From: a virus | Direction: 5' to 3' (one strand) | Length of the DNA: 44,021 bases | UHGV virus genome: UHGV-0153635 | Shown: piece by piece, positions 2,872 to 19,723 of the stretch | How positions within the stretch are numbered: position 1 is the stretch's first letter | How the letters are laid out: each line of letters opens with the position of its first letter | The notes under the pieces: model-generated | What the model was told of the DNA's origin: nothing | What the model saw: the letters and a program-made list of their open reading frames with translations, nothing else | Database searches by the model: none | Made by a program: the position numbers and the translations under genes

Positions 2872-3114
2872 CTAAATCTCCTGGTCTGATTTACCGTCAA
2901 CAATAAGCAGCACTGGCTTATCAGGATAAGCGCCCTGGAAGCTCTGTAGCAGGCGCTTGCCTAAGCCCTTGCAGCCACCCTCCGGGTCCTCGTAAAGCTC
3001 GTACCCGGGCTGCCCTGTGACTTCTACGGTGCAGTACGGGATAGGTGCTGCTACGTTGCTGCTCAGTAGCAGCACTGCGGACTTAACCGCGATAGTAATT
3101 GTCTGAATCATCAT
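2872..3114 (-). CDS. hypothetical protein (80 aa)
   Basis: ORF track; ATG start; overlaps upstream stop. Confidence 0.5.
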   Translation of the reverse strand: MMIQTITIAVKSAVLLLSSNVAAPIPYCTVEVTGQPGYELYEDPEGGCKGLGKRLLQSFQGAYPDKPVLLIVDGKSDQEI

Positions 3115-3353
3115 TTAACTCCTCTTGGGATACGCCCTTTGCTGGCGTAGTAGCTGTTAATCTTGCTGTCGGTCTTGTTACCGATACTGCGTACGTTCGT
3201 ACTGAAGCCCTGTGGCCTTGCCCGGTCAGTAGCCTCAAAGGTCTGAAGCTTCTTCAGGCGCTTACGCTCCTCAGAGCCTTCTGGAGTCTGCGCAGCAGCT
3301 ACCAGAGCTTTGATTGACTGCTCGCGCTTCTTACAGAGTTTTAAGTAACCCAT
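3111..3353 (-). CDS. hypothetical basic protein (80 aa); first sizeable gene downstream of the early promoter block
   Basis: ORF track; ATG 3353 with AAGGGG RBS; Lys/Arg-rich. Confidence 0.55.
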   Translation of the reverse strand: MGYLKLCKKREQSIKALVAAAQTPEGSEERKRLKKLQTFEATDRARPQGFSTNVRSIGNKTDSKINSYYASKGRIPRGVK

Positions 3354-3699
3354 TTGAATCCCCTTAATTCTGCACCCTCGCTGTGAGGACGCTTAACTAA
3401 GAAACTTCTCTTAGCGAGTCACCCTTTACTGGTTAGACTCTCATCGGTTCTCCCTGCGGGAATGCCCGGACGCACCCTTCGACACATTTTCTTTGTGGCC
3501 TAGTGTCTCGCTCGACCTCCTCAGCAGATTTTTAACGTGACGCTGGGGACCCCACCTGACTTTAGCGGCACTTCACAGTGCGTTTGCTTGCTATCTAAGT
3601 TACTGCGTGTTTCTGTACTTGTCAAGCTCTGTTTCTGAACTTTTGCTCTTAACTCTCTAGCTAGCGCCTTGATAGGCTGGCTAGTTGCCAGCGCTACCG

Positions 3700-3846
3700 T
3701 TATAGCTTAATGCATTTGTGTCTAAGGAACCAGACACGCAGCCTACCTTGCTCCCCCTTGAGGGTTACAAGGCCGTGCTCATTGATTGTATCTACCGTTA
3801 CAATGAAACCAGTAGGGGTTAAGAATGAGTCGTTTTGCTTAATCAT
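3700..3846 (-). CDS. possible small ORF (48 aa) in the early leader region
   Basis: Manual translation; ATG 3846 with AAAGGTG RBS; no homology evidence. Confidence 0.2.
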   Translation of the reverse strand: MIKQNDSFLTPTGFIVTVDTINEHGLVTLKGEQGRLRVWFLRHKCIKL

Positions 3847-3998
3847 GATAGTACACCTTTAGTTAATGAGCCTATCAAGACACTAGCCGGATTGTTAAAG
3901 AGCGCTACTGCCTACTACTTATCGATTATCCAGGCTTCGTATGCCCTGGCGCTACTCCCCGTTACCGGGCGGCTCCTTGCCTCTCGATGTTGTGTTCA

Positions 3999-4026
3999 CT
4001 ATAAACAGGGCACTTCTAAATGTCAA
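3999..4026 (-). promoter_or_regulatory. sigma70-type promoter candidate (TTGACA - 17 bp - TATAGT), reading toward lower coordinates
   Basis: Minus strand reads TTGACAtttagaagtgccctgttTATAGT; hexamers and 17-bp spacing read directly. Confidence 0.5.
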
Positions 4027-4029
4027 ACT

Positions 4030-4515
4030 TTATTTTGCTCTGTGGAACTCTTTTGTTAATGCCGCGCTCACACGGACAGCCGCTGAGTGCGCAACCTCTG
4101 CGCTGCTATAACCCTCCTTGCAATAGCGCTTACCGTCCACCACTACCACGTATTTAAAACCGTCTACAGTTCGCTGCACCCATTTAAAACCGCTGGTATT
4201 ATTAGCCGGACGTTTACTATTGTGCCTGTTCTGCTGAGGTGTTGCAGCTCTCAGATTCTCCACTCTATTATCTTTTGGATTCCCGTTAATGTGGTCAACA
4301 ACCTCTGGGTAGAACCCGTGGTGCAGAGCAAATATAATCCTGTGTATACAGTAGTATGCGCCATCTACACGGATTACTCGGTAACCTTTAGCAATCTGAG
4401 TACCTAATGGTTTATTGGCCTGCCGCCCTTTACCAGGCACCCTCCAGTACAGAACGCCCTTTGTACTTTCATATCGCATGTTGCTACGCACAAAATCTAA
4501 ATCTAAATCCGCCAT
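4030..4515 (-). CDS. HNH homing endonuclease (paralog family member 1)
   Basis: VDHINGNPKDNRVENLR...QQNRHN HNH motif; ATG 4515 with AGAGGG RBS (track start 4551 is further upstream). Confidence 0.8.
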   Translation of the reverse strand: MADLDLDFVRSNMRYESTKGVLYWRVPGKGRQANKPLGTQIAKGYRVIRVDGAYYCIHRIIFALHHGFYPEVVDHINGNPKDNRVENLRAATPQQNRHNSKRPANNTSGFKWVQRTVDGFKYVVVVDGKRYCKEGYSSAEVAHSAAVRVSAALTKEFHRAK

Positions 4516-4634
4516 ATAATACCCTCTTAGTGTGTTGAAAAAGGGAAGCACTGTACAGCTAGTGCCTCCCCTCGGTTAATGTCACTGCCCGCACCGCATT
4601 AGCAGCGCTTTCCCGGTGCAACGTAAGCTATAGG

Positions 4635-4901
4635 TTACTTTAAGGCATTATGCATAGCAGCGCTAGGTACACAATACCGATCAAGAAACTCTGCTGCATC
4701 CGGATAAACCTCCCTGTACTTAAGCTGATTAAACTCTACATAGAACTCAACCAGCCCTAACCCAAGCAAGTGCATCCGCTTAGGCTTACCCAACCCCTCC
4801 CATAGCTGCAAGGATGTATCGTAAGCCGGATAGGAGCCTGCTTGCTTATGCATATAGTCGTAGATGCCCAGTAACCCTTTCTTCAATGCTACAGCATTCA
4901 T
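4635..4901 (-). CDS. hypothetical protein (88 aa)
   Basis: ORF track; ATG 4901 preceded by GAGGA within a duplicated upstream element. Confidence 0.55.
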   Translation of the reverse strand: MNAVALKKGLLGIYDYMHKQAGSYPAYDTSLQLWEGLGKPKRMHLLGLGLVEFYVEFNQLKYREVYPDAAEFLDRYCVPSAAMHNALK

Positions 4902-4903
4902 TT

Positions 4904-4955
4904 AAATGTCCTCAAATTAATTACCTATAGTATATAGCGTAGCGCCTATACGCTA
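4904..4955 (-). repeat. copy 1 of a duplicated ~45-bp upstream element (second copy 5555..5604)
   Basis: Shared core AAATGTCCTCAAATTAATTACC plus TATAG..AGCGTAGCG..TATA with hairpin potential, read on the plus strand in both copies. Confidence 0.5.
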
Positions 4956-5534
4956 AAACGGAAACTCTGAGTCGTCAAAGTGCACTAGCACTGTATCAGC
5001 AGTAGCTACAACCCCCGGTACAGTTCGCATAGCCTCAGCACGTTCCTGCTCTTGCAGTATAGAACGTATCGACATAACCTCAACCAGATACTGCAAGCCC
5101 CGCTCAGCCCTGCTAACAGCCCTCTCCGCACAGTACAGGAAATCCTCCCAGGCAACCGGGCAGTAACGCAGCTTCAGGCTCATAAGGTCCTGTACAGCGC
5201 TCAGGAGCATACCTCTCTGCACTGCATCTAGTCCCTGTATTACATCTATCCGGCTGTACAACTCCCTCTGCTTATCCTGTATAGCAGCAGCATCCAGAGC
5301 CTGCACTGTACCAATTAGCATAGGCTGTAACCCCCTGAGTCTGTCCAGTACTGGATTATCAGAATCCGCTAGCTCAACAGGCATTCCTAAGTGCCAGACC
5401 CTGGCTGTACCGGCATCACTACGAGGCTTATGCTGCTTCCTGGCTGGAGCAGGAACCTCACAGCCTAACTCCGTGTCCCAGTAGTAGTTCTGCTTCTTAC
5501 CGTCTACCCGGCGCTGCTTACGCAGTATCGTCAT
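4953..5534 (-). CDS. hypothetical protein (193 aa); leftmost gene in phage orientation
   Basis: ORF track; ATG 5534 with GAGGAGGG RBS. Confidence 0.55.
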   Translation of the reverse strand: MTILRKQRRVDGKKQNYYWDTELGCEVPAPARKQHKPRSDAGTARVWHLGMPVELADSDNPVLDRLRGLQPMLIGTVQALDAAAIQDKQRELYSRIDVIQGLDAVQRGMLLSAVQDLMSLKLRYCPVAWEDFLYCAERAVSRAERGLQYLVEVMSIRSILQEQERAEAMRTVPGVVATADTVLVHFDDSEFPF

Positions 5535-5554
5535 AGTACCCTCCTCAACATAGT

Positions 5555-5604
5555 AAATGTCCTCAAATTAATTACCCTCCTTATAGAGCGTAGCGAGTAT
5601 AAGG
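5555..5604 (-). repeat. copy 2 of the duplicated ~45-bp upstream element
   Basis: Same core as 4904..4955. Confidence 0.5.
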
Positions 5605-5632
5605 TTAGGTAACTCTGGTTAACTCTGAGATA

Positions 5633-5661
5633 ACTATAGCACTCTGTACCTTAACGTGCAA
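5633..5661 (-). promoter_or_regulatory. sigma70-type promoter candidate (TTGCAC - 17 bp - TATAGT) overlapping one copy of the conserved 12-mer
   Basis: Minus strand reads TTGCACgttaaggtacagagtgcTATAGT about 100 bp upstream of ATG 5534. Confidence 0.35.
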
Positions 5662-5689
5662 CCTCTGTAGTTAAAGCTGTGGCTAATCC

Positions 5690-5945
5690 TGTGCTATCTC
5701 CGGTCTATACCTGTGGAGTCTATGGCTATCCTTAGGCTATCACTGCGCTGCACAGAGAAGACGAAAAGAGGTAAGGCAGCGCCCACCTCCGCCACCACAC
5801 TAAGCACAGCCCAGAGCTATCACTCAGAGCCAACCAGAGCCACGCTAAGGCTATCACAGGGCTATCCCTATGCTATCCCATTGGCTATCCGGTAGAAGCG
5901 CTTAGAGAAGCTCCCAGAGCCTCGTAGAGGCCCCAGGCTATCCGC
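5690..5945. repeat. array of about nine GCTATC-core heptamer repeats (GGCTATC on plus, GATAGCC in phage orientation); candidate genome-terminus region
   Basis: Copies read at about 5693, 5724, 5735, 5816, 5849, 5860, 5870, 5883, 5937 in the only large intergenic gap between the last late gene and the first left-end gene. Confidence 0.55.
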
Positions 5946-6159
5946 TGGTAAGCACAGGCCCCCACCCCACCCCGGCCTTAGTTATGGCTGAGGCACCCCC
6001 TATGGGGGAACTGAGGGGCGTTGAGGGTGAGGGCCAGCCTCGCGTAAGTATAACATTTTTAGGGAGCGAGTATACACCTGCCCCAGTGACAATCCCATAC
6101 TAAGCCTGCCAGCTCTAGCAAGCCCAATGCACTGGCACTGAGCCTGCTCAGGGACCAAC

Positions 6160-7824
6160 CTAGCGCACAACGAACTTACCGAGGCTAATATCGTTAACCA
6201 GGGTAGCTACGATACTAGATAACTGCGTAGTAGTAAGGGTATTAACATCCCCACCGCGTAAGGTGGCGGCATTTGTAAACGGATACGCTTGCGGCTGCTT
6301 AGTATCGAAGAACTGATTCCCCTGCTCGTACCGGTAAGCTGGTGTAGTTGTATAAAGTATTCCGTTCGTAGTTACAGGAACAGAACAATTCACGATGTTT
6401 ACATGCGCAGCGAGACCGGCGCACTCAATAGGACGAGCAACAGTGCCGAACGGCTGAACACCTACCAGACGGTTTATGTTCAGGCTCTGTGCCGCCTGCG
6501 CATACAGATAAGAACTAGGAAGGCCGTTAACACCGCGAATATTCCAGTTATCTACTTCAATATGTCGGGCATTAATAATCTGGCAGATTGCTTGACCGTC
6601 TGCATCAGGATTTGCGCCAACAATACGCACATTCTTAATAGTGATGTCGGAAGTAGCTGTTGTGTTCGCCCCACAGTTAATCATAACAGCTTTAGAACCA
6701 GATTGTGTGCAGTGGATTGTCAACCCGTCAAACTCAATATCACCTAGATTTACTGTGTGAGAGGAGCCGGCCTGGCGTAAAAAGAACACAGCCCAATCCG
6801 TGTGGTTGGATATTAAGATATTACTAAAGCGCAGTCGTGTGACTTCTACCGGATAGAATCTGCATAAAATCCCCTGAGAGCAGTTTCGGATGAAGATGTT
6901 GTCGTAAGTGACATCACGTGAACCCTCAATAGCAATACCTGCATTACAACTTTCAATGTATAACCCGGTCACGCTGCCGTTGGAGAAGTTCGCGCGGAGG
7001 CCATGTGATTCACAGTTCTTGATGGTTACGCCGCTGATGTTTACACGCGTAATTGCAGTACCCCCACCAACGCCAGCCCCTAAATCGTCAGACTGAAGGC
7101 GCAACCCATTACCGCCGGAGCCATTAATGCTGACATCGTGAATCATCACGTTAAGTGTGCGACCTGGTTTGGATGAATCCACAAACACAGAAGATGCCCA
7201 AGTTGTTTGGGTGCGTACATGATGAATGTGCGCTTCGGTGGCATTACCAACAACAATCGCCATACCCTGCCGGTTACTTCCGTCTGGATTCTGTATTTGT
7301 CCGCGACCGCAGTCATGAGAATAAAGATTATCAGCAATTACCCAGCGTCCGTGCTCCATGGCTACGTTATTCTGCCACGCTCCCTGTAACTCGCACCCTG
7401 AAAGCTCAAGAGTACCAGCGGATTGCATAGCCAGCCCAACCCCTGGGGTAAAGGACGCATCCTGTCGATAAAAATCAAACAGGAAATTTCCAACGATACG
7501 AATATCATAGGGGGTGTAATCAAACTCCTGATTTGCTTCGTTCCAGGTACGAGGTGAACGCAACACAAACTGGCGAGAGTCTACGATTACTTTAGGTAGT
7601 TGCGTACGTATCCTTACATCTGTTGGGATAATAAATAACCCCTCTAAAGTTACCGGGGTGTAGGCCACCTCTATATTACCACCCGTAGATAGTGCCGCCT
7701 GTAATTCAGAGTCACTACGAACAACCTTCCAACCACTGAGTAGTCCGTCCAGCGCCGCGCCTACTGTAGTATCATTATAATCCACCTGGTATGCATCTAC
7801 GTGGATGTTTTCAACAAGGGCCAT
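6160..7824 (-). CDS. tailspike protein, right-handed beta-helix (pectate-lyase-like) polysaccharide depolymerase candidate
   Basis: 554 aa with recurring beta-helix-like motifs (IKNCESHG, IESCNAGIAIEGS, IRNCSQGI, IVNCSVP) and Gly/Asn/Ser/Thr-rich content; ATG 7824 with AAGGAG RBS; last gene of the late operon. Confidence 0.65.
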   Translation of the reverse strand: MALVENIHVDAYQVDYNDTTVGAALDGLLSGWKVVRSDSELQAALSTGGNIEVAYTPVTLEGLFIIPTDVRIRTQLPKVIVDSRQFVLRSPRTWNEANQEFDYTPYDIRIVGNFLFDFYRQDASFTPGVGLAMQSAGTLELSGCELQGAWQNNVAMEHGRWVIADNLYSHDCGRGQIQNPDGSNRQGMAIVVGNATEAHIHHVRTQTTWASSVFVDSSKPGRTLNVMIHDVSINGSGGNGLRLQSDDLGAGVGGGTAITRVNISGVTIKNCESHGLRANFSNGSVTGLYIESCNAGIAIEGSRDVTYDNIFIRNCSQGILCRFYPVEVTRLRFSNILISNHTDWAVFFLRQAGSSHTVNLGDIEFDGLTIHCTQSGSKAVMINCGANTTATSDITIKNVRIVGANPDADGQAICQIINARHIEVDNWNIRGVNGLPSSYLYAQAAQSLNINRLVGVQPFGTVARPIECAGLAAHVNIVNCSVPVTTNGILYTTTPAYRYEQGNQFFDTKQPQAYPFTNAATLRGGDVNTLTTTQLSSIVATLVNDISLGKFVVR

Positions 7825-16566: not shown

Positions 16567-16662
16567 TGTATTCCCTCAAAAGAATTGTGATAAGAGCAGG
16601 GGCCGAAGCCCCTTGCTTTAATTAAACTAGTCTATTTCCTAGTAGCCAAGATAAGGACCACC

Positions 16663-17055
16663 TCACTTTCTGCCGAACGGAGTAAACCATTCCTGCTGAG
16701 ACGAGTGCCTACCCTTATCCAGACTCTCTTGGATGTTATCCGAATGAGTTACTGGACGCAGGTGACGGGGATTAATACAAGCAGGGTTATCGCAAGAATG
16801 CGCAAGTTCGAGTTCAGCCTGGTCGTAGTCACCTTTGTGGAGCACGTATGACACCTTGTGCGCCCCTAGGTTCTTACCACCTATCTTGAACCTCCCATAA
16901 CCATACTGGTCCTTACTCCCCAGGTACTCTATGCAACCATCCTCCTTGACAGTGCTAAGTCTATACAGCCGACTGTATGGATTCTCCCTACATGGCTGGG
17001 ATACCATCCAATTAAAGTCGTACACGATGCATCCTCCGTTAGAAGCGGGTTCCAT
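16663..17055 (-). CDS. HNH endonuclease (distinct from the other four); start uncertain
   Basis: ELAHSCDNPACINPRHLRPVTHSDN motif; track ORF runs to GTG 17130 overlapping the upstream gene, ATG 17055 chosen. Confidence 0.7.
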   Translation of the reverse strand: MEPASNGGCIVYDFNWMVSQPCRENPYSRLYRLSTVKEDGCIEYLGSKDQYGYGRFKIGGKNLGAHKVSYVLHKGDYDQAELELAHSCDNPACINPRHLRPVTHSDNIQESLDKGRHSSQQEWFTPFGRK

Positions 17056-19723
17056 ACAGCCAACTGCGGAAGTTCTCTTCCAAGTACTTCTTACGTGATG
17101 GCTGCGCCTGCTTGTACGCTGGTTGTGCACGCAGAGTCTGCCAGGCCTTACCCTCGGCTTCGGAGACCGGGTACTGGTAAGCCCCTACAGGTTGCTTCTG
17201 CGCTTTACGAACCTGCGCTACTGCTTCTGCTACTGGAGCAGAACTACCGTTACCGCCGTGATAGTTCAGGTCAAACATAACCTTCATGGCTTCATCTGTT
17301 GCTGGTAAAGCGTTAGACTTAAGCTGCTTCTGCACGGCCGGGAGGTACTGCTTCTCCATGCTGGTCTTCAGCACAGACACAGCCCAGGCTGGTGTAAGCT
17401 CCTTAGGAACAGGCATACCGGACTTGTCATGCAGGCCAAAGCCTACGCTACCATTGCCCTTCTTAGCCCTGTATCCTTCGAACTGCATGGTATTAGCTGT
17501 AATCTCAGAGAACAGGTTCGGGTCTACACCAACAGTGTTCTTCCCATCCACGTTCATCTGCACAGTACGCCCGTTGTCATGGTCGTAGAAAGTTGCTGGT
17601 CTAGAGCCTACAGCGGTGCTGCCAATCTTGACACCGCCAGCCAGGGCCTTGTCATAACCTTCCTGAGCCAGTTCTTGTACCTGTGAGTTGTTGATGCTGA
17701 CGTTATGCATTAAGCCATCAGTATCAATTACAGTAGCAGTGAGGTTCTGCCCACGGGAACCAGCAGTCCCCGCCTGGATGATAACTTTCTGCACTTTACT
17801 AGGGTCTACAACGCCATCTACAGCATCTTGTACAGTCTGCTGCAACGCGGTGGTGTACTGCTGAGTATCCCCCTGATAGCTACCCATGAGGTCCTTCATA
17901 GAGGAGCCTGCTGGCAGGTACACATGCCGTGGCTTACCTGCTACGTCAATCTCAAGCTTACGTGCCTGGATGTTCCCAGCAAGCATAGTGCTGATATCCT
18001 CAGCGCTCTTACCTACCAGTGCCTCGGGGTTAGTACGGTACAGATAACGGTATTCCGCCTCCATAGCAGCACGCCCTTCCTGACGCTGCATATCCGCAGT
18101 GTCTCCGAAGCTGAACCAGTTAGCAGTGCCCTTGGCATCCAGCATATCCTCGGTAGGATTCACTGCTAGGTTGTTGTAGCGTCCAGAAGCCTTGTTCTGT
18201 GAGAGTCTGCGGATATCATCCAGCATGATGTTGCTGGCGTTACTAGGCCCCTGAGAGGCTGCGCGCTGCACTACGCCCTTCCAATCCCCCGGTACAGAGT
18301 CCAGCAGCGCCATCTTGCCTACATCAGTGCTTTGTTGGTACATCTGCACCCATGTAGCGATGGTAGCTTGGTTCTCTGCGGAGATTTGCCCATCCTCTCC
18401 GAGCTGGTCCAGACTCGCTAAGGTATTAGACAGGTTCTTGGACATACGAGACTGTGCAGTCTGAATAGCCCACGGGTCCTTACTGGATGCTCCGTACTGC
18501 GCTAGCAGGATGTTACCTTGCGCTGTATCAGGGAACTGCCCCAGGACTTGGTTACGAGCCTTATCGACGTCTCCGCCGAACATACCTGCCAGTACCGTGG
18601 TGGGCGCATTACTAGAGATTACGTTCTGTAGCGCGTACTTAGCAGACGCCTGCTCACGCAGCTTGTTGGCACTATCCCAGATTTCCATCTGAGTGCCTGG
18701 GCTGAGCACATCCATCTTGCCGTACTTAATTAACTCTGCACGGATAGTCTGCATACCTTGCTCTTGCTCCTCAGGGGAAGCACTTTGCAGAATCTGCAAC
18801 TGGTCCGATATATTAAAACGTACCTCAGATTCAAGCTGAGCGCCTGCGCGCTTAAACTCTGAGTACAGCGCCTTGTTAACCTCGACTGCGTTAACACCCA
18901 GCTCCCGTGTAGCGAGTTGCTGTAGCTTGTCGATGAGCATAGGGTCTGTCGTGTTCTGAGCGATACTAACCAGGTAGTTCTTAGCACGGTCCAGCTTCTT
19001 ATCTTTGTCCAGGTGCGCAGCGCCTAGGATAGCTTCCATACCGCCCATCACAGCGCCCTCGGCAGCGCCTGCTTGCCCCTGCTCGATACGCGCGTAGAAC
19101 TCATCAGAGCTAGCGCTCAGGTTCTTATCTAAGGCACGGTCAGCTTGTACTACAGCGAACTCTGCACGCCCTTTCTGGAACGCTACGTAGTTGCCTGCGC
19201 TGGTCATTTGCAACTGCTTCAGGGCGGCTGCTTGGGACTGCTTATCCATCTTAGGGAGGTACAGTCCGAGCTTATCTTGCATCTGCTGTACGTACTTCTG
19301 CTCCTGCTGATGGAACTCCTGGTCAGACATTCCAGACAGCGCTGCATCACTAGCACGCTTAACAGAATCAGCTTTCCACCGGGCTAGCTCCCCGCTAGCC
19401 GCAGCTTGTAAGTACCCTTCCTGGTAATACCCCCGGAGCAGGAACCCTTGCTTCTTAACGTTCTCGTCCAGTTCCCCGGCAGCATCCATAGAGCCTTGAG
19501 CATCCATAGCGCCACGTACAGCAGCCTTAGCGCCCTCAGCTTCTACACCCTGCTGAAACCCTACTGTAAAATCCCCGAAGAACTTCTCTACTGCGGCCCT
19601 ACGATTCAGGGATGCCTGGTCAATAGTAGGAGCACCCACGCCTACAGCGAAGTCTACCTGAGAGGGTGCTAGCTCAGCAGCCCCCAGATTCAGGCCCTGT
19701 CGCTGTGTATTAATTACTGGCAT
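17039..19723 (-). CDS. internal virion protein (T7 gp15-like)
   Basis: 894 aa; position; ATG 19723 with GGGAG RBS. Confidence 0.65.
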   Translation of the reverse strand: MPVINTQRQGLNLGAAELAPSQVDFAVGVGAPTIDQASLNRRAAVEKFFGDFTVGFQQGVEAEGAKAAVRGAMDAQGSMDAAGELDENVKKQGFLLRGYYQEGYLQAAASGELARWKADSVKRASDAALSGMSDQEFHQQEQKYVQQMQDKLGLYLPKMDKQSQAAALKQLQMTSAGNYVAFQKGRAEFAVVQADRALDKNLSASSDEFYARIEQGQAGAAEGAVMGGMEAILGAAHLDKDKKLDRAKNYLVSIAQNTTDPMLIDKLQQLATRELGVNAVEVNKALYSEFKRAGAQLESEVRFNISDQLQILQSASPEEQEQGMQTIRAELIKYGKMDVLSPGTQMEIWDSANKLREQASAKYALQNVISSNAPTTVLAGMFGGDVDKARNQVLGQFPDTAQGNILLAQYGASSKDPWAIQTAQSRMSKNLSNTLASLDQLGEDGQISAENQATIATWVQMYQQSTDVGKMALLDSVPGDWKGVVQRAASQGPSNASNIMLDDIRRLSQNKASGRYNNLAVNPTEDMLDAKGTANWFSFGDTADMQRQEGRAAMEAEYRYLYRTNPEALVGKSAEDISTMLAGNIQARKLEIDVAGKPRHVYLPAGSSMKDLMGSYQGDTQQYTTALQQTVQDAVDGVVDPSKVQKVIIQAGTAGSRGQNLTATVIDTDGLMHNVSINNSQVQELAQEGYDKALAGGVKIGSTAVGSRPATFYDHDNGRTVQMNVDGKNTVGVDPNLFSEITANTMQFEGYRAKKGNGSVGFGLHDKSGMPVPKELTPAWAVSVLKTSMEKQYLPAVQKQLKSNALPATDEAMKVMFDLNYHGGNGSSAPVAEAVAQVRKAQKQPVGAYQYPVSEAEGKAWQTLRAQPAYKQAQPSRKKYLEENFRSWLYGTRF

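What the first reader, a model, noticed from the sequence alone, without database searches (positions are those of the whole stretch)
4030..5604. Three genes (193 aa, 88 aa, HNH) lie upstream of the early promoter block; the first two are each preceded by a duplicated ~45-bp element
The elements at 4904-4955 and 5555-5604 share AAATGTCCTCAAATTAATTACC followed by TATAG..AGCGTAGCG..TATA with hairpin potential, and the core contains the RBS (GAGGA) of the downstream gene. A separate TTGCAC-17-TATAGT candidate lies at 5661-5633. The leftmost genes therefore appear to have their own shared control element, the sort of position where phages carry anti-host or anti-defence early proteins.
Basis: partly seen in the sequence, partly recalled or inferred. 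Interest (0 to 1): 0.45.

Follow-up and report, generated by a model that had tools for sequence, protein, structure and literature searches.

The report
Paired leader elements flanking phage's first gene
The 48-base repeat is real and strongly conserved: in this group of T7-like Enterobacter phages the first two genes each sit behind the same non-coding leader, which contains their ribosome-binding site and marks the fixed joint where the second gene is swapped between phages; what the two proteins do is still unknown.

Summary
The window is a Koutsourovirus-like podophage (relatives phiKDA1, SDFMU_Pec) with its genes on the minus strand. The repeat is real: 48 nt at 83% identity (4903-4950, 5554-5601), including an exact 23-mer found nowhere else in the window. 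It is not a curiosity of one genome. In 19 of 20 related genomes, genes 1 and 2 are both preceded by the same element. The element comes in five unrelated sequence types that share only TGAG(G)ACA and track the gene-1 type. Within the window's type, copy B is 45/45 identical across genomes whose gene 1 is 77% identical (third codon positions 61%) and whose gene 2 is five unrelated proteins. It is therefore a selected non-coding cassette and a fixed recombination joint. It is not a phage-RNA-polymerase promoter, because polymerases 98% identical coexist with different element types. It shows no significant hairpin and no Rfam match. Genes 1 and 2 form their own small operon: a conserved extended -10 promoter at 5661-5633 and an intrinsic terminator at 4573-4536. 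The HNH gene lies beyond that terminator and is a sporadic insertion. Both proteins are clade-restricted orphans, so the anti-defence role is untested. My best reading is a shared mRNA leader and translation-initiation cassette.

The parts
5633..5661 (-). P1: sigma-70-type promoter, TTGCAC (5661-5656) - 17 nt - TATAGT (5638-5633), with extended -10 TG at 5641-5640. Homology to relatives that carry other element types breaks off here.
   Evidence: Read from the sequence. TGnTAnnnT is conserved in all relatives. Homology to phiKDA1 ends at 5637. The consensus scan does not flag it because the -35 matches only 3 of 6.
5654..5666 (-). 13-mer AGAGGTTGCACGT overlapping the -35 of P1. Other copies are at 28913-28901 (after the RNAP gene), 2428-2416 and 2254-2242. 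Candidate phage-RNAP promoter core.
   Evidence: 4 matches at up to 1 mismatch against 0.10 expected. Same positions in phiKDA1 (412, 20741, 3522), Pec and KKP 3828. KP34 RNAP strong promoters lie at equivalent places (475, 22197; PMC6834552).
5554..5601 (-). Element A, in the 5' leader of gene 1: TATACTCGCTACGCT - CTATAAGGAG - GGTAATTAATTTGAGGACATTTA.
   Evidence: 47-48 of 48 nt identical in L007, L008, L009 and L011.
4953..5534 (-). Gene 1, 193 aa. The basic N-terminal ~30 aa (RKQRRVDGKKQNYYWD) are conserved across all element types; the rest is type-specific. Function unknown.
   Evidence: AlphaFold2 mean pLDDT 56, with an N-terminal beta-hairpin at pLDDT 73-85. Only 9 clusters among 1.84 billion representatives.
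4903..4950 (-). Element B. It fills the 51-nt gap between gene 1 and gene 2. Its GAGGA (4913-4909) is the RBS of gene 2, 7 nt before the ATG.
   Evidence: 45/45 identical in five genomes that carry five unrelated gene 2s.
4635..4901 (-). Gene 2, 88 aa, occupying a variable cassette slot. The same protein family sits behind element types I, III and IV in different phages.
   Evidence: Homology to phiKDA1 starts exactly at ATG 4901.
4574..4642 (-). Conserved linker forming the right border of the variable slot. It includes the stop codon of gene 2 and the RBS of a third small gene that is missing from the window.
   Evidence: 89-95% identical in phiKDA1, Pec, Entb_48, KKP 3828 and EhYP.
4536..4573 (-). 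Intrinsic terminator closing the two-gene operon: 13-bp stem, 8-nt loop, U5.
   Evidence: -20.9 kcal/mol, z = -3.85. Conserved in relatives.
4030..4515 (-). Free-standing HNH endonuclease gene (161 aa), inserted between the terminator and P2.
   Evidence: PF13392 E=1.3e-14, phrog_99 E=1.8e-46. Absent at this site in four relatives, present in L018/L019.
3998..4026 (-). P2: TTGACA-17-TATAGT, the first promoter of the main early block.
   Evidence: 11 of 12 matches. phiKDA1 has TTGACA-17-TAGAGT at the equivalent place.

Best explanation
The duplicated element is a selected, non-coding leader cassette belonging to a self-contained two-gene operon at the left end of the genome.

Layout: P1 (5661-5633), element A, gene 1, element B, gene 2, terminator (4573-4536).

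Proposed action: both copies are transcribed and act in cis on the mRNA. Their 3' third (A/U-rich stretch, then TGAGGACA) is a ribosome-loading site. The type-specific 5' two-thirds are kept the same in front of both genes, so that both are started, and probably regulated, in the same way.

Second role: because A and B are fixed while the flanking genes are not, B together with the conserved linker at 4642-4574 serves as the joints at which the gene-2 cassette is exchanged between phages by recombination.

Shown: the repeat, its clade-wide pairing, purifying selection, the module boundaries, RBS geometry, and the operon limits.

Inferred: that the constraint acts at the RNA or translation level, and that the two genes are co-regulated.
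For: 1. The repeat is exact over 23 nt and unique to these two sites. TGAGGAC followed by a start codon occurs nowhere else in the window.

2. Pairing is clade-wide: 19 of 20 genomes have an A and a B. There are five sequence types. Within-genome A-B identity is 0.80, against 0.42 between types.

3. Purifying selection, window versus L011: gene 1 is 77% identical in DNA and 61% at third codon positions, yet B is 45/45, A is 47/48 and the P1-to-A leader is 57/60. The 22 nt between A and the gene-1 ATG are only 13/22.

4. B keeps GAGGA 5-7 nt before the ATG of five unrelated gene 2s. In PAS7, L014 and phiKDA1, A does the same for gene 1.

5. The element travels with gene 1, not gene 2. The MNAVALKK gene 2 sits behind types I, III and IV, and homology to phiKDA1 begins exactly at ATG 4901.

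6. The operon is bounded by a conserved extended -10 promoter and a conserved terminator.
Against: Conservation of all 45-48 nt is more than an ordinary ribosome-binding site needs.

In the window, A's GAGGA lies 25 nt from the gene-1 ATG. The spacer between them varies freely, so A cannot be acting as a simple RBS for gene 1 here.

No significant RNA structure and no Rfam family support a structured leader.

There is no transcript or translation data. The constraint could equally be on DNA.

A generic translation role does not explain why A and B stay alike within each type while the types differ completely.
Confidence: 0.45

Rival explanations
1. The element is a type-specific target of a phage-encoded factor, most simply the gene-1 protein itself. 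That protein would bind both leaders, as RNA or DNA, to shut off or time genes 1 and 2. This would resemble the T4 RegA translational repressor, or, together with the downstream terminator, lambda N acting at nutL and nutR.
For: Element type tracks gene-1 type in all genomes, while gene 2 is uncorrelated.

A and B stay alike within a type, although the types share only TGAG(G)ACA.

In type II, a one-base insertion (TTAATACA versus TTATATACA) is shared by A and B of the same sub-lineage.

Gene 1 has a conserved, very basic N-terminal beta-hairpin plus a type-specific C-terminal part.

Conservation extends over the whole 45-48 nt.

The operon ends in a terminator.
Against: The co-variation could be plain physical linkage, because A and B abut gene 1.

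Gene 1 has no nucleic-acid-binding domain by Pfam, PHROGs, PDB or fold search.

The protein segment that is conserved across types is the basic N-terminus, whereas the element varies. This is the opposite of the N/boxB pattern.

There is no dyad symmetry and no boxB-like hairpin.

The boxA-like CGCTCTATAA in A is at chance level (13 hits versus 10.1 expected).
Confidence: 0.17
2. The repeat is mainly a product and tool of recombination, comparable to the PeSL cassettes of T4-type phages. The two copies would be duplicated gene-boundary sequence left by cassette insertion, kept because they are the homology at which modules are exchanged, with no regulatory role beyond an ordinary RBS.
For: The breakpoints of mosaicism coincide with the element. 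The module [leader A - gene 1 - B] is swapped as a block between P1 and the gene-2 ATG.

Five unrelated gene 2s follow an identical B.

The right border of the slot is another conserved linker.

A second shared start region (AGAGGTTGCACGnnATG) precedes two unrelated adjacent early genes at 2428 and 2254.

PeSLs show that repeated regulatory cassettes mediate such shuffling (PMC2839356).
Against: Neutral scars should decay. Here A and B are 98-100% conserved where third codon positions are 61% identical, and the differences between A and B are themselves conserved across genomes. That points to selection on each copy, not recent duplication or ongoing conversion.

From my own knowledge of T7 genetics, 23-48-nt direct repeats should promote loss of gene 1, so keeping them is costly unless they are needed.
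Confidence: 0.2
3. The elements are promoters. Either they are T7/SP6-like promoters for the phage RNA polymerase (CTCTATAAGG in A, ACTATAGG in B; phiKDA1 has ACACTATA in both), or B is a sigma-70 promoter giving gene 2 its own transcript.
For: CTATAGG and CTATAAGG occur on the gene strand only in these two elements.

The verified promoter of EM1 RNAP (71% identical to phiKDA1 RNAP) is TCAGAAGTCACACTATAA. The same authors picked the phiKDA1 copy of element B (TACAACACTATACAATAG) as a candidate promoter (PMC9596486).
Against: The window's RNAP is 98.2% identical to Pec's, 97.3% to KKP 3828's and 93.7% to phiKDA1's. The equivalents of the specificity and AT-recognition loops are identical or differ by one residue. 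Yet their elements are of unrelated types IV, V and III.

The CTATA cores of A and B are 5 nt out of register relative to the shared flanks.

Types II, IV and V have no such core.

There is no copy before late genes, whereas AGAGGTTGCACGT occupies the KP34-promoter positions.

The phiKDA1 candidate was inactive with EM1 RNAP (PMC9596486).

For sigma-70, no site is flagged at either element. The best manual fit for B is 8 of 12, and its -35 lies in coding sequence that is not conserved in L011.
Confidence: 0.06
4. The element is a structured RNA signal, such as an RNase III or RNase E processing site or an attenuator/antiterminator hairpin. This would be like the repeated RNase III sites before T7 early genes or the duplicated hairpin motif of KP34-like phages.
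For: Both copies can draw a short hairpin in the same register, with a CG-CUA-CG apex. There is one compensatory pair (U-A in A, G-C in B), by my own reading.

KP34-like phages have a duplicated early-region motif (PMC4411677) that folds strongly (z = -4.17).
Against: Folding energies are indistinguishable from shuffles (z = -0.03 to -0.9).

Stems of 6-9 mostly A-U pairs are too short for RNase III.

Types II and V have no comparable hairpin.

No Rfam hit at E<=1.
Confidence: 0.07

Closest known systems
PeSL cassettes (promoter-early stem-loops) of T4-type phages (PMC2839356, PMC4122927)
   Same: Short conserved non-coding cassettes are repeated at the borders of small ORFan genes in a hypervariable early region. 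The breakpoints of gene gain, loss and replacement fall in the cassettes.
   Different: PeSLs are a strong sigma-70 promoter plus a terminator stem-loop and occur in many copies. Here there are only two copies, with no promoter and no significant stem-loop. The cassette ends in the ribosome-binding site, and its sequence is type-specific and linked to gene 1.
Leaders and RNase III sites of the T7 early operon (R0.3 before gene 0.3, and others)
   Same: There are repeated non-coding elements immediately upstream of the first early genes of a T7-like phage. The first gene products are made from the first DNA to enter the cell.
   Different: T7 sites are long, bulged hairpins cleaved by RNase III. 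The elements here do not fold better than chance and are type-variable. This comparison rests on my own knowledge of T7 and was not tested here.
Lambda N with nutL/nutR, and T4 RegA with its mRNA operators
   Same: There are two copies of one element downstream of an early promoter, next to a small basic early protein, with phage-type-specific sequences and a terminator downstream.
   Different: No boxB hairpin. The boxA resemblance is at chance level. The basic N-terminus is the conserved part of the protein, not the variable part. No binding data.
Duplicated 'putative phage promoter' motif of KP34-like phages (AGCCTATAGCGTCCTACGGGGCGCTATGTGAA; PMC4411677)
   Same: It is a roughly 32-nt motif present twice in intergenic positions of the early region in the sister genus, of unknown function.
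   Different: The KP34 motif is one conserved sequence forming a strong GC hairpin (z = -4.17). It is not tied to the first gene and is not type-variable.
KP34 RNA polymerase strong promoter T(A/G)ATGTTACAGGAGTA (PMC6834552)
   Same: This concerns the neighbouring 13-mer AGAGGTTGCACGT, not the element. The 13-mer has the same genomic positions (left end, and just after the RNAP gene) and matches 9 of 14 nt when aligned.
   Different: The 13-mer is untested for this phage. At the left end it overlaps a good sigma-70 extended -10 promoter.

Membership tests
Shine-Dalgarno translation-initiation region | A purine-rich anti-16S match 5-10 nt upstream of the start codon | tested here: met
   B has GAGGA at 4913-4909, 7 nt before ATG 4901. 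The same geometry holds before five unrelated gene 2s. In the window, A's GAGGA is 25 nt from the gene-1 ATG, which has its own AGGAGG 5 nt upstream. A is the direct RBS of gene 1 in PAS7, L014 and phiKDA1.
PeSL (promoter-early stem-loop) cassette | A strong sigma-70-like promoter inside the cassette | tested here: not met
   No promoter-like site is flagged at either element. The best manual fit for B is 8 of 12, with a -35 that is not conserved in L011.
PeSL (promoter-early stem-loop) cassette | A stem-loop that terminates transcription | tested here: not met
   z = -0.03 to -0.9 for both elements. The real terminator is separate, at 4573-4536.
PeSL (promoter-early stem-loop) cassette | Copies flank variable ORFan genes, and recombination breakpoints fall in them | tested here: met
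   The module [A - gene 1 - B] and the gene-2 cassette are exchanged with breakpoints at P1, at the end of B, and in the 4642-4574 linker.
T7-group single-subunit RNAP promoter | Phages with the same polymerase specificity determinants carry the same promoter sequence | tested here: not met
   RNAPs 93.7-98.2% identical, with identical or near-identical loop equivalents, go with element types I, III, IV and V.
T7-group single-subunit RNAP promoter | Copies upstream of middle or late gene blocks | tested here: not met
   There are only two copies, both at the left end.
Lambda-type nut site with N-like antiterminator | boxA (CGCTCTT(T)A) followed by a boxB hairpin | tested here: not met
   A matches the boxA 13-mer at 10 of 13, but such matches occur at the chance rate (13 found, 10.1 expected). 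No significant hairpin.
Lambda-type nut site with N-like antiterminator | Two or more copies downstream of an early promoter and upstream of a terminator, beside a small arginine-rich protein gene | tested here: inconclusive
   The layout fits. Gene 1 has a basic N-terminus, but no evidence of RNA binding can be obtained with these tools.
Rfam RNA families | A match to any curated covariance model | tested here: not met
   0 matches at E<=1 in 3300-6200, both strands.
HNH homing endonuclease (third gene) | An HNH_3 domain, and sporadic presence or absence at one site among close relatives | tested here: met
   PF13392 E=1.3e-14, phrog_99 E=1.8e-46. Absent at this site in L001-L004, present at the same site in L018/L019.
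Intrinsic (Rho-independent) terminator (4573-4536) | A GC-rich stem-loop followed by a U run | tested here: met
   13-bp stem, 8-nt loop, U5, -20.9 kcal/mol, z = -3.85. The phiKDA1 copy gives z = -4.84.
Anti-defence / anti-restriction early protein (genes 1 and 2) | Homology or fold similarity to a known inhibitor, or demonstrated activity | tested here: not met
   No Pfam, PHROG, PDB-sequence or fold match. The models are of low confidence (pLDDT 56 and 53). Activity cannot be tested with these tools.

The most novel reading that the evidence does not exclude
Gene 1 encodes a new kind of type-specific regulator in a T7-like phage. Its variable C-terminal part would recognise its own leader type at both A and B, on the nascent mRNA. 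This would form a portable 'regulator plus two operators' module that times or shuts off the first two proteins made after DNA entry, or lets RNA polymerase read through the terminator at 4573-4536. It would be analogous to lambda N/nut or T4 RegA but unrelated in sequence.
Probability: 0.12. Interest if true: 0.7.

Novelty: new variant of a known kind. Interest (0 to 1): 0.4.

Why it matters
The finding defines a small, separately terminated 'first-in' operon in Koutsourovirus-type phages. It would be expressed from the first DNA to enter the cell.

Its second position is a swap slot: at least five unrelated small proteins follow an identical leader in near-identical phages. That pattern is expected of host-interaction or anti-defence genes, so the slot is a sensible place to look for new inhibitors.

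The leader cassette is conserved far beyond the neutral rate, is always paired, and comes in five types. That makes it a tractable cis-element whose function could be settled with simple reporter and binding assays.

It also offers portable start regions for engineering these phages. Because the direct repeats predict frequent loss of gene 1, the locus may be unstable in therapeutic stocks.

Tried and rejected
Hairpin or structured RNA. Four folds of the elements and two of the hairpin parts all gave z between -0.03 and -0.9. Rfam found nothing.

Leader peptide. The ATG at 5551-5549 opens a 6-codon ORF whose TGA overlaps the gene-1 ATG. That ATG is ACG in L008, L009, L022 and L023, and the frame is broken in L011. 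Rejected.

T7/SP6/EM1-like promoter. This was attractive because CTATA(A)GG occurs only here and phiKDA1's copy was once picked as a candidate (PMC9596486). It is rejected on polymerase identity versus element type.

boxA. The match is at chance level.

Third copy or antisense partner in the genome. None found.

Mimic of a host leader. The 18-mer has six scattered hits in unrelated bacteria and none in Enterobacteriaceae. My arithmetic gives roughly 17 expected by chance in 596 Gb.

Sigma-70 promoter in B. Weak and not conserved.

Protein function. Pfam, PHROGs, PDB sequence profiles, AlphaFold2 models, and Foldseek against PDB and BFVD returned only orthologues or noise. The top PDB hit, CarD, has E=0.16 and TM 0.15, and I give it no weight.

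Collection scans. IMG/VR and metagenome scans for more relatives added only four loci.

Sister genera. Bucovirus and Cronobacter phage Peggy lack gene 1 and the element.
Full report
**What the window is.** The region matches Enterobacter phage phiKDA1 and its relatives (Autographiviridae, Slopekvirinae, Koutsourovirus) at 85-90% in patches. All long ORFs are on the minus strand. The annotated left terminal repeat of phiKDA1 aligns to about 6032-5766. Read on the minus strand, the finding therefore covers the first genes after the left end of a T7-like genome.

**Checking the observation.** The repeat is real: 48 nt, 83% identical, at 4903-4950 and 5554-5601.
- The 23-mer GGTAATTAATTTGAGGACATTTA occurs exactly twice, with no further copy at up to 3 mismatches and none in 100 shuffles.
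- No 10- or 11-mer of either copy indicates a third or antisense copy.
- The ORFs are as described, and the third is an HNH_3 endonuclease.

Three details need correcting.
- Hairpin potential is not above chance: z = -0.03 to -0.9 in six folds.
- In copy B, GAGGA lies 7 nt before the gene-2 ATG. In copy A it lies 25 nt before the gene-1 ATG, which has its own AGGAGG 5 nt upstream.
- The short ORF that starts at the ATG inside A is not conserved.

**Operon structure.**
TGnTAnnnT is kept in every relative.
- After gene 2 comes a 70-nt linker conserved at 89-95%.
- Next is a 13-bp stem, 8-nt loop and U5 at 4573-4536, with z = -3.85. It is conserved in relatives, and the phiKDA1 copy gives z = -4.84.
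- In phiKDA1 the next promoter follows directly. In the window, and in metagenomic relatives L018/L019, a 161-aa HNH gene sits between this terminator and TTGACA-17-TATAGT at 4026-3998.

Genes 1 and 2 are therefore a self-contained unit. The HNH gene is a sporadic insertion outside it.

**The element in relatives.** I extracted the sequence before gene 1 and gene 2 in 20 genomes: six isolates and fourteen metagenomic contigs.
- In 19 of them both genes are preceded by the same element.
- The sequence differs between groups, giving five types:
  - Type I (window clade): CGCTACGCT-N10-GGTAATTAATTTGAGGAC.
  - Type II (PAS7, EhYP, L012, L014, L024): ATACATTT-N6-GTGAGGACA.
  - Type III (phiKDA1, Entb_48, L016, L020): AACACTATACA...ATAGGAGATAATTGAGACA.
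  - Type IV (Pec, L018): ATTATCGTAGGCAnTAnTTGAGGAC.
  - Type V (KKP 3828): TTATATATACTTTATTTGAGGAC.
- Over the last 30 nt, A and B of one genome are 0.80 identical on average (minimum 0.70). Elements of different types are 0.42 identical, mostly through the shared TGAG(G)ACA.
- Sister genera (Bucovirus, Cronobacter phage Peggy) have neither gene 1 nor the element.

**Selection.** Within type I, I compared the window with L011.
- Gene 1 is 77% identical in DNA and 61% at third codon positions.
- B is 45/45, A is 47/48, and the leader from P1 to A is 57/60.
- The 22 nt between A and the gene-1 ATG are only 13/22.
- At the third-position rate, 45 unchanged bases has a probability of about 2e-10 (my arithmetic).
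- The ten central bases that differ between A and B are themselves conserved across genomes.

Each copy is therefore held by selection rather than by continuing homogenisation.

**Module boundaries.**
- Behind an identical B, five type-I genomes carry five gene 2s with no detectable similarity to each other.
- Conversely, the window's gene 2 (the MNAVALKK family, known only from this phage group) sits behind types I, III and IV.
- Window-phiKDA1 homology starts exactly at ATG 4901 and, on the other side, stops at 5637, the -10 of P1.

The exchanged block is therefore [transcribed leader - gene 1 - B]. Gene 2 is a separate cassette between B and the 4642-4574 linker. Element type follows gene-1 type.

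**What it is not.**
- It is not a promoter for the phage RNA polymerase, despite the CTATA(A)GG cores, which are unique in the window. It also resembles the EM1 RNAP promoter, and phiKDA1's copy of B was once tested as a candidate and found inactive (PMC9596486).
  - The window's polymerase is 98.2% identical to Pec's (type IV), 97.3% to KKP 3828's (type V) and 93.7% to phiKDA1's (type III).
  - The equivalents of the specificity and AT-recognition loops are identical or differ by one residue.
- It is not a sigma-70 promoter by the consensus scan.
- It matches no Rfam family.
- It does not mimic a host sequence.
- Its boxA-like CGCTCTATAA is at chance level.

**The proteins.**
- Gene 1 belongs to a tiny family: 15 clusters in 5.8 billion sequences and 9 of 1.84 billion representatives.
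- Its basic N-terminus (RKQRRVDGKKQNYYWD) is invariant and is predicted as a beta-hairpin at pLDDT 73-85. Its helical remainder is type-specific and poorly predicted.
- Gene 2 is a small helical orphan (pLDDT 53).
- Nothing matches in Pfam, PHROGs, PDB or BFVD beyond orthologues.

The anti-defence idea is untested. Only position and the swap-slot behaviour of gene 2 speak for it.

**Most likely mechanism.** The element is a cis-acting leader cassette on the mRNA of this first operon.
- Its 3' third is a ribosome-loading site. This is directly visible for B, and for A in three of the five types.
- Its 5' part is a type-specific sequence needed in front of both genes, implying common handling of the two messages.
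- As a side effect the fixed copies act as recombination joints.

I give this 0.45, because the full-length conservation and the within-type likeness of A and B ask for more than a generic RBS.

The most interesting alternative (0.17 as a rival; 0.12 in the specific form given as the novel case) is that the gene-1 protein recognises its own leader type at both sites. Physical linkage alone could produce the same co-variation. The other rivals are a pure recombination scar (0.20), a promoter (0.06) and a structured RNA (0.07).

**Comparison with known systems.** The closest analogue in behaviour is the PeSL cassette of T4-type phages (PMC2839356). However, two of its defining features, the promoter and the terminator stem-loop, were tested here and not met. 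KP34-like phages have a different duplicated early motif, a strong hairpin (PMC4411677). I found no description of paired, type-variable leaders around the first gene of Koutsourovirus phages in the papers searched. I rate it a new variant of a known kind, of moderate interest.

Noticed in passing
window 5666-5654, 28913-28901, 2428-2416, 2254-2242 (all minus strand): The 13-mer AGAGGTTGCACGT occurs 4 times at up to 1 mismatch, against 0.10 expected. It sits at the left end and just before the first late gene after the RNAP gene, and likewise in phiKDA1, Pec and KKP 3828. These are the positions of the verified KP34 RNAP strong promoter T(A/G)ATGTTACAGGAGTA (PMC6834552), so it is a likely phage-RNAP promoter. 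The copies at 2428 and 2254 instead form a shared AGAGG...ATG start region for two unrelated adjacent small genes.
   Followed up: partly
window 3904-3892 (minus strand): There is an exact match to the boxA consensus CGCTCTTTAACAA about 85 nt downstream of early promoter P2. It is the only exact copy in the window. It is present in L009 and absent from phiKDA1. It hints at Nus-factor-dependent antitermination of early transcription, which would be unusual for a T7-like phage.
   Followed up: partly
window 5943-5725 (minus strand): Five exact GGATAGC repeats, plus several GATAGC variants, cluster within and just inside the terminal-repeat region. There are 17 copies in the whole window against 7.3 expected. 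The cluster recalls the short repeat arrays next to the T7 terminal repeats.
   Followed up: no
window 4642-4574 (minus strand); phiKDA1 1518-1600: A 70-nt linker after gene 2 is 89-95% conserved in all relatives. It contains the stop codon of different gene-2 cassettes (AAAGTAA) and the RBS of a third small gene. That gene is present in phiKDA1 (unannotated, about 1603-1806), L007 and L009, but is deleted in the window, where the RBS abuts the terminator.
   Followed up: partly
window 4030-4515 and 16567-17130 (minus strand): The left-end HNH gene is polymorphic among near-identical phages, and the same gene occupies the same site in L018/L019. The apparent 472-nt gap at 16567-17038 reads like a further HNH endonuclease gene, inside ORF 16663-17130. 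I did not scan it against Pfam. phiKDA1 carries five annotated endonuclease genes of this kind.
   Followed up: no
L004 (SDFMU_EhYP) 3057-3398; L008 3157-3384: The start codons of gene 2 are mis-called in the public or automatic annotation. The element B pattern places the real ATG at about L004 3117 (MHRLDLL...) and L008 3133 (MSRTYRK...).
   Followed up: yes
window 3625-3597 (minus strand): A further early promoter, TTGACAAGTACAGAAACACGCAGTAACTT, is almost the same as the host promoter listed for KP34-like phages, TTGACAAGTTCTGATTCACTGAGTAACTT (PMC4411677, Table 3). The main early promoter is therefore conserved across genera, while the gene-1/gene-2 operon upstream of it is not.
   Followed up: no
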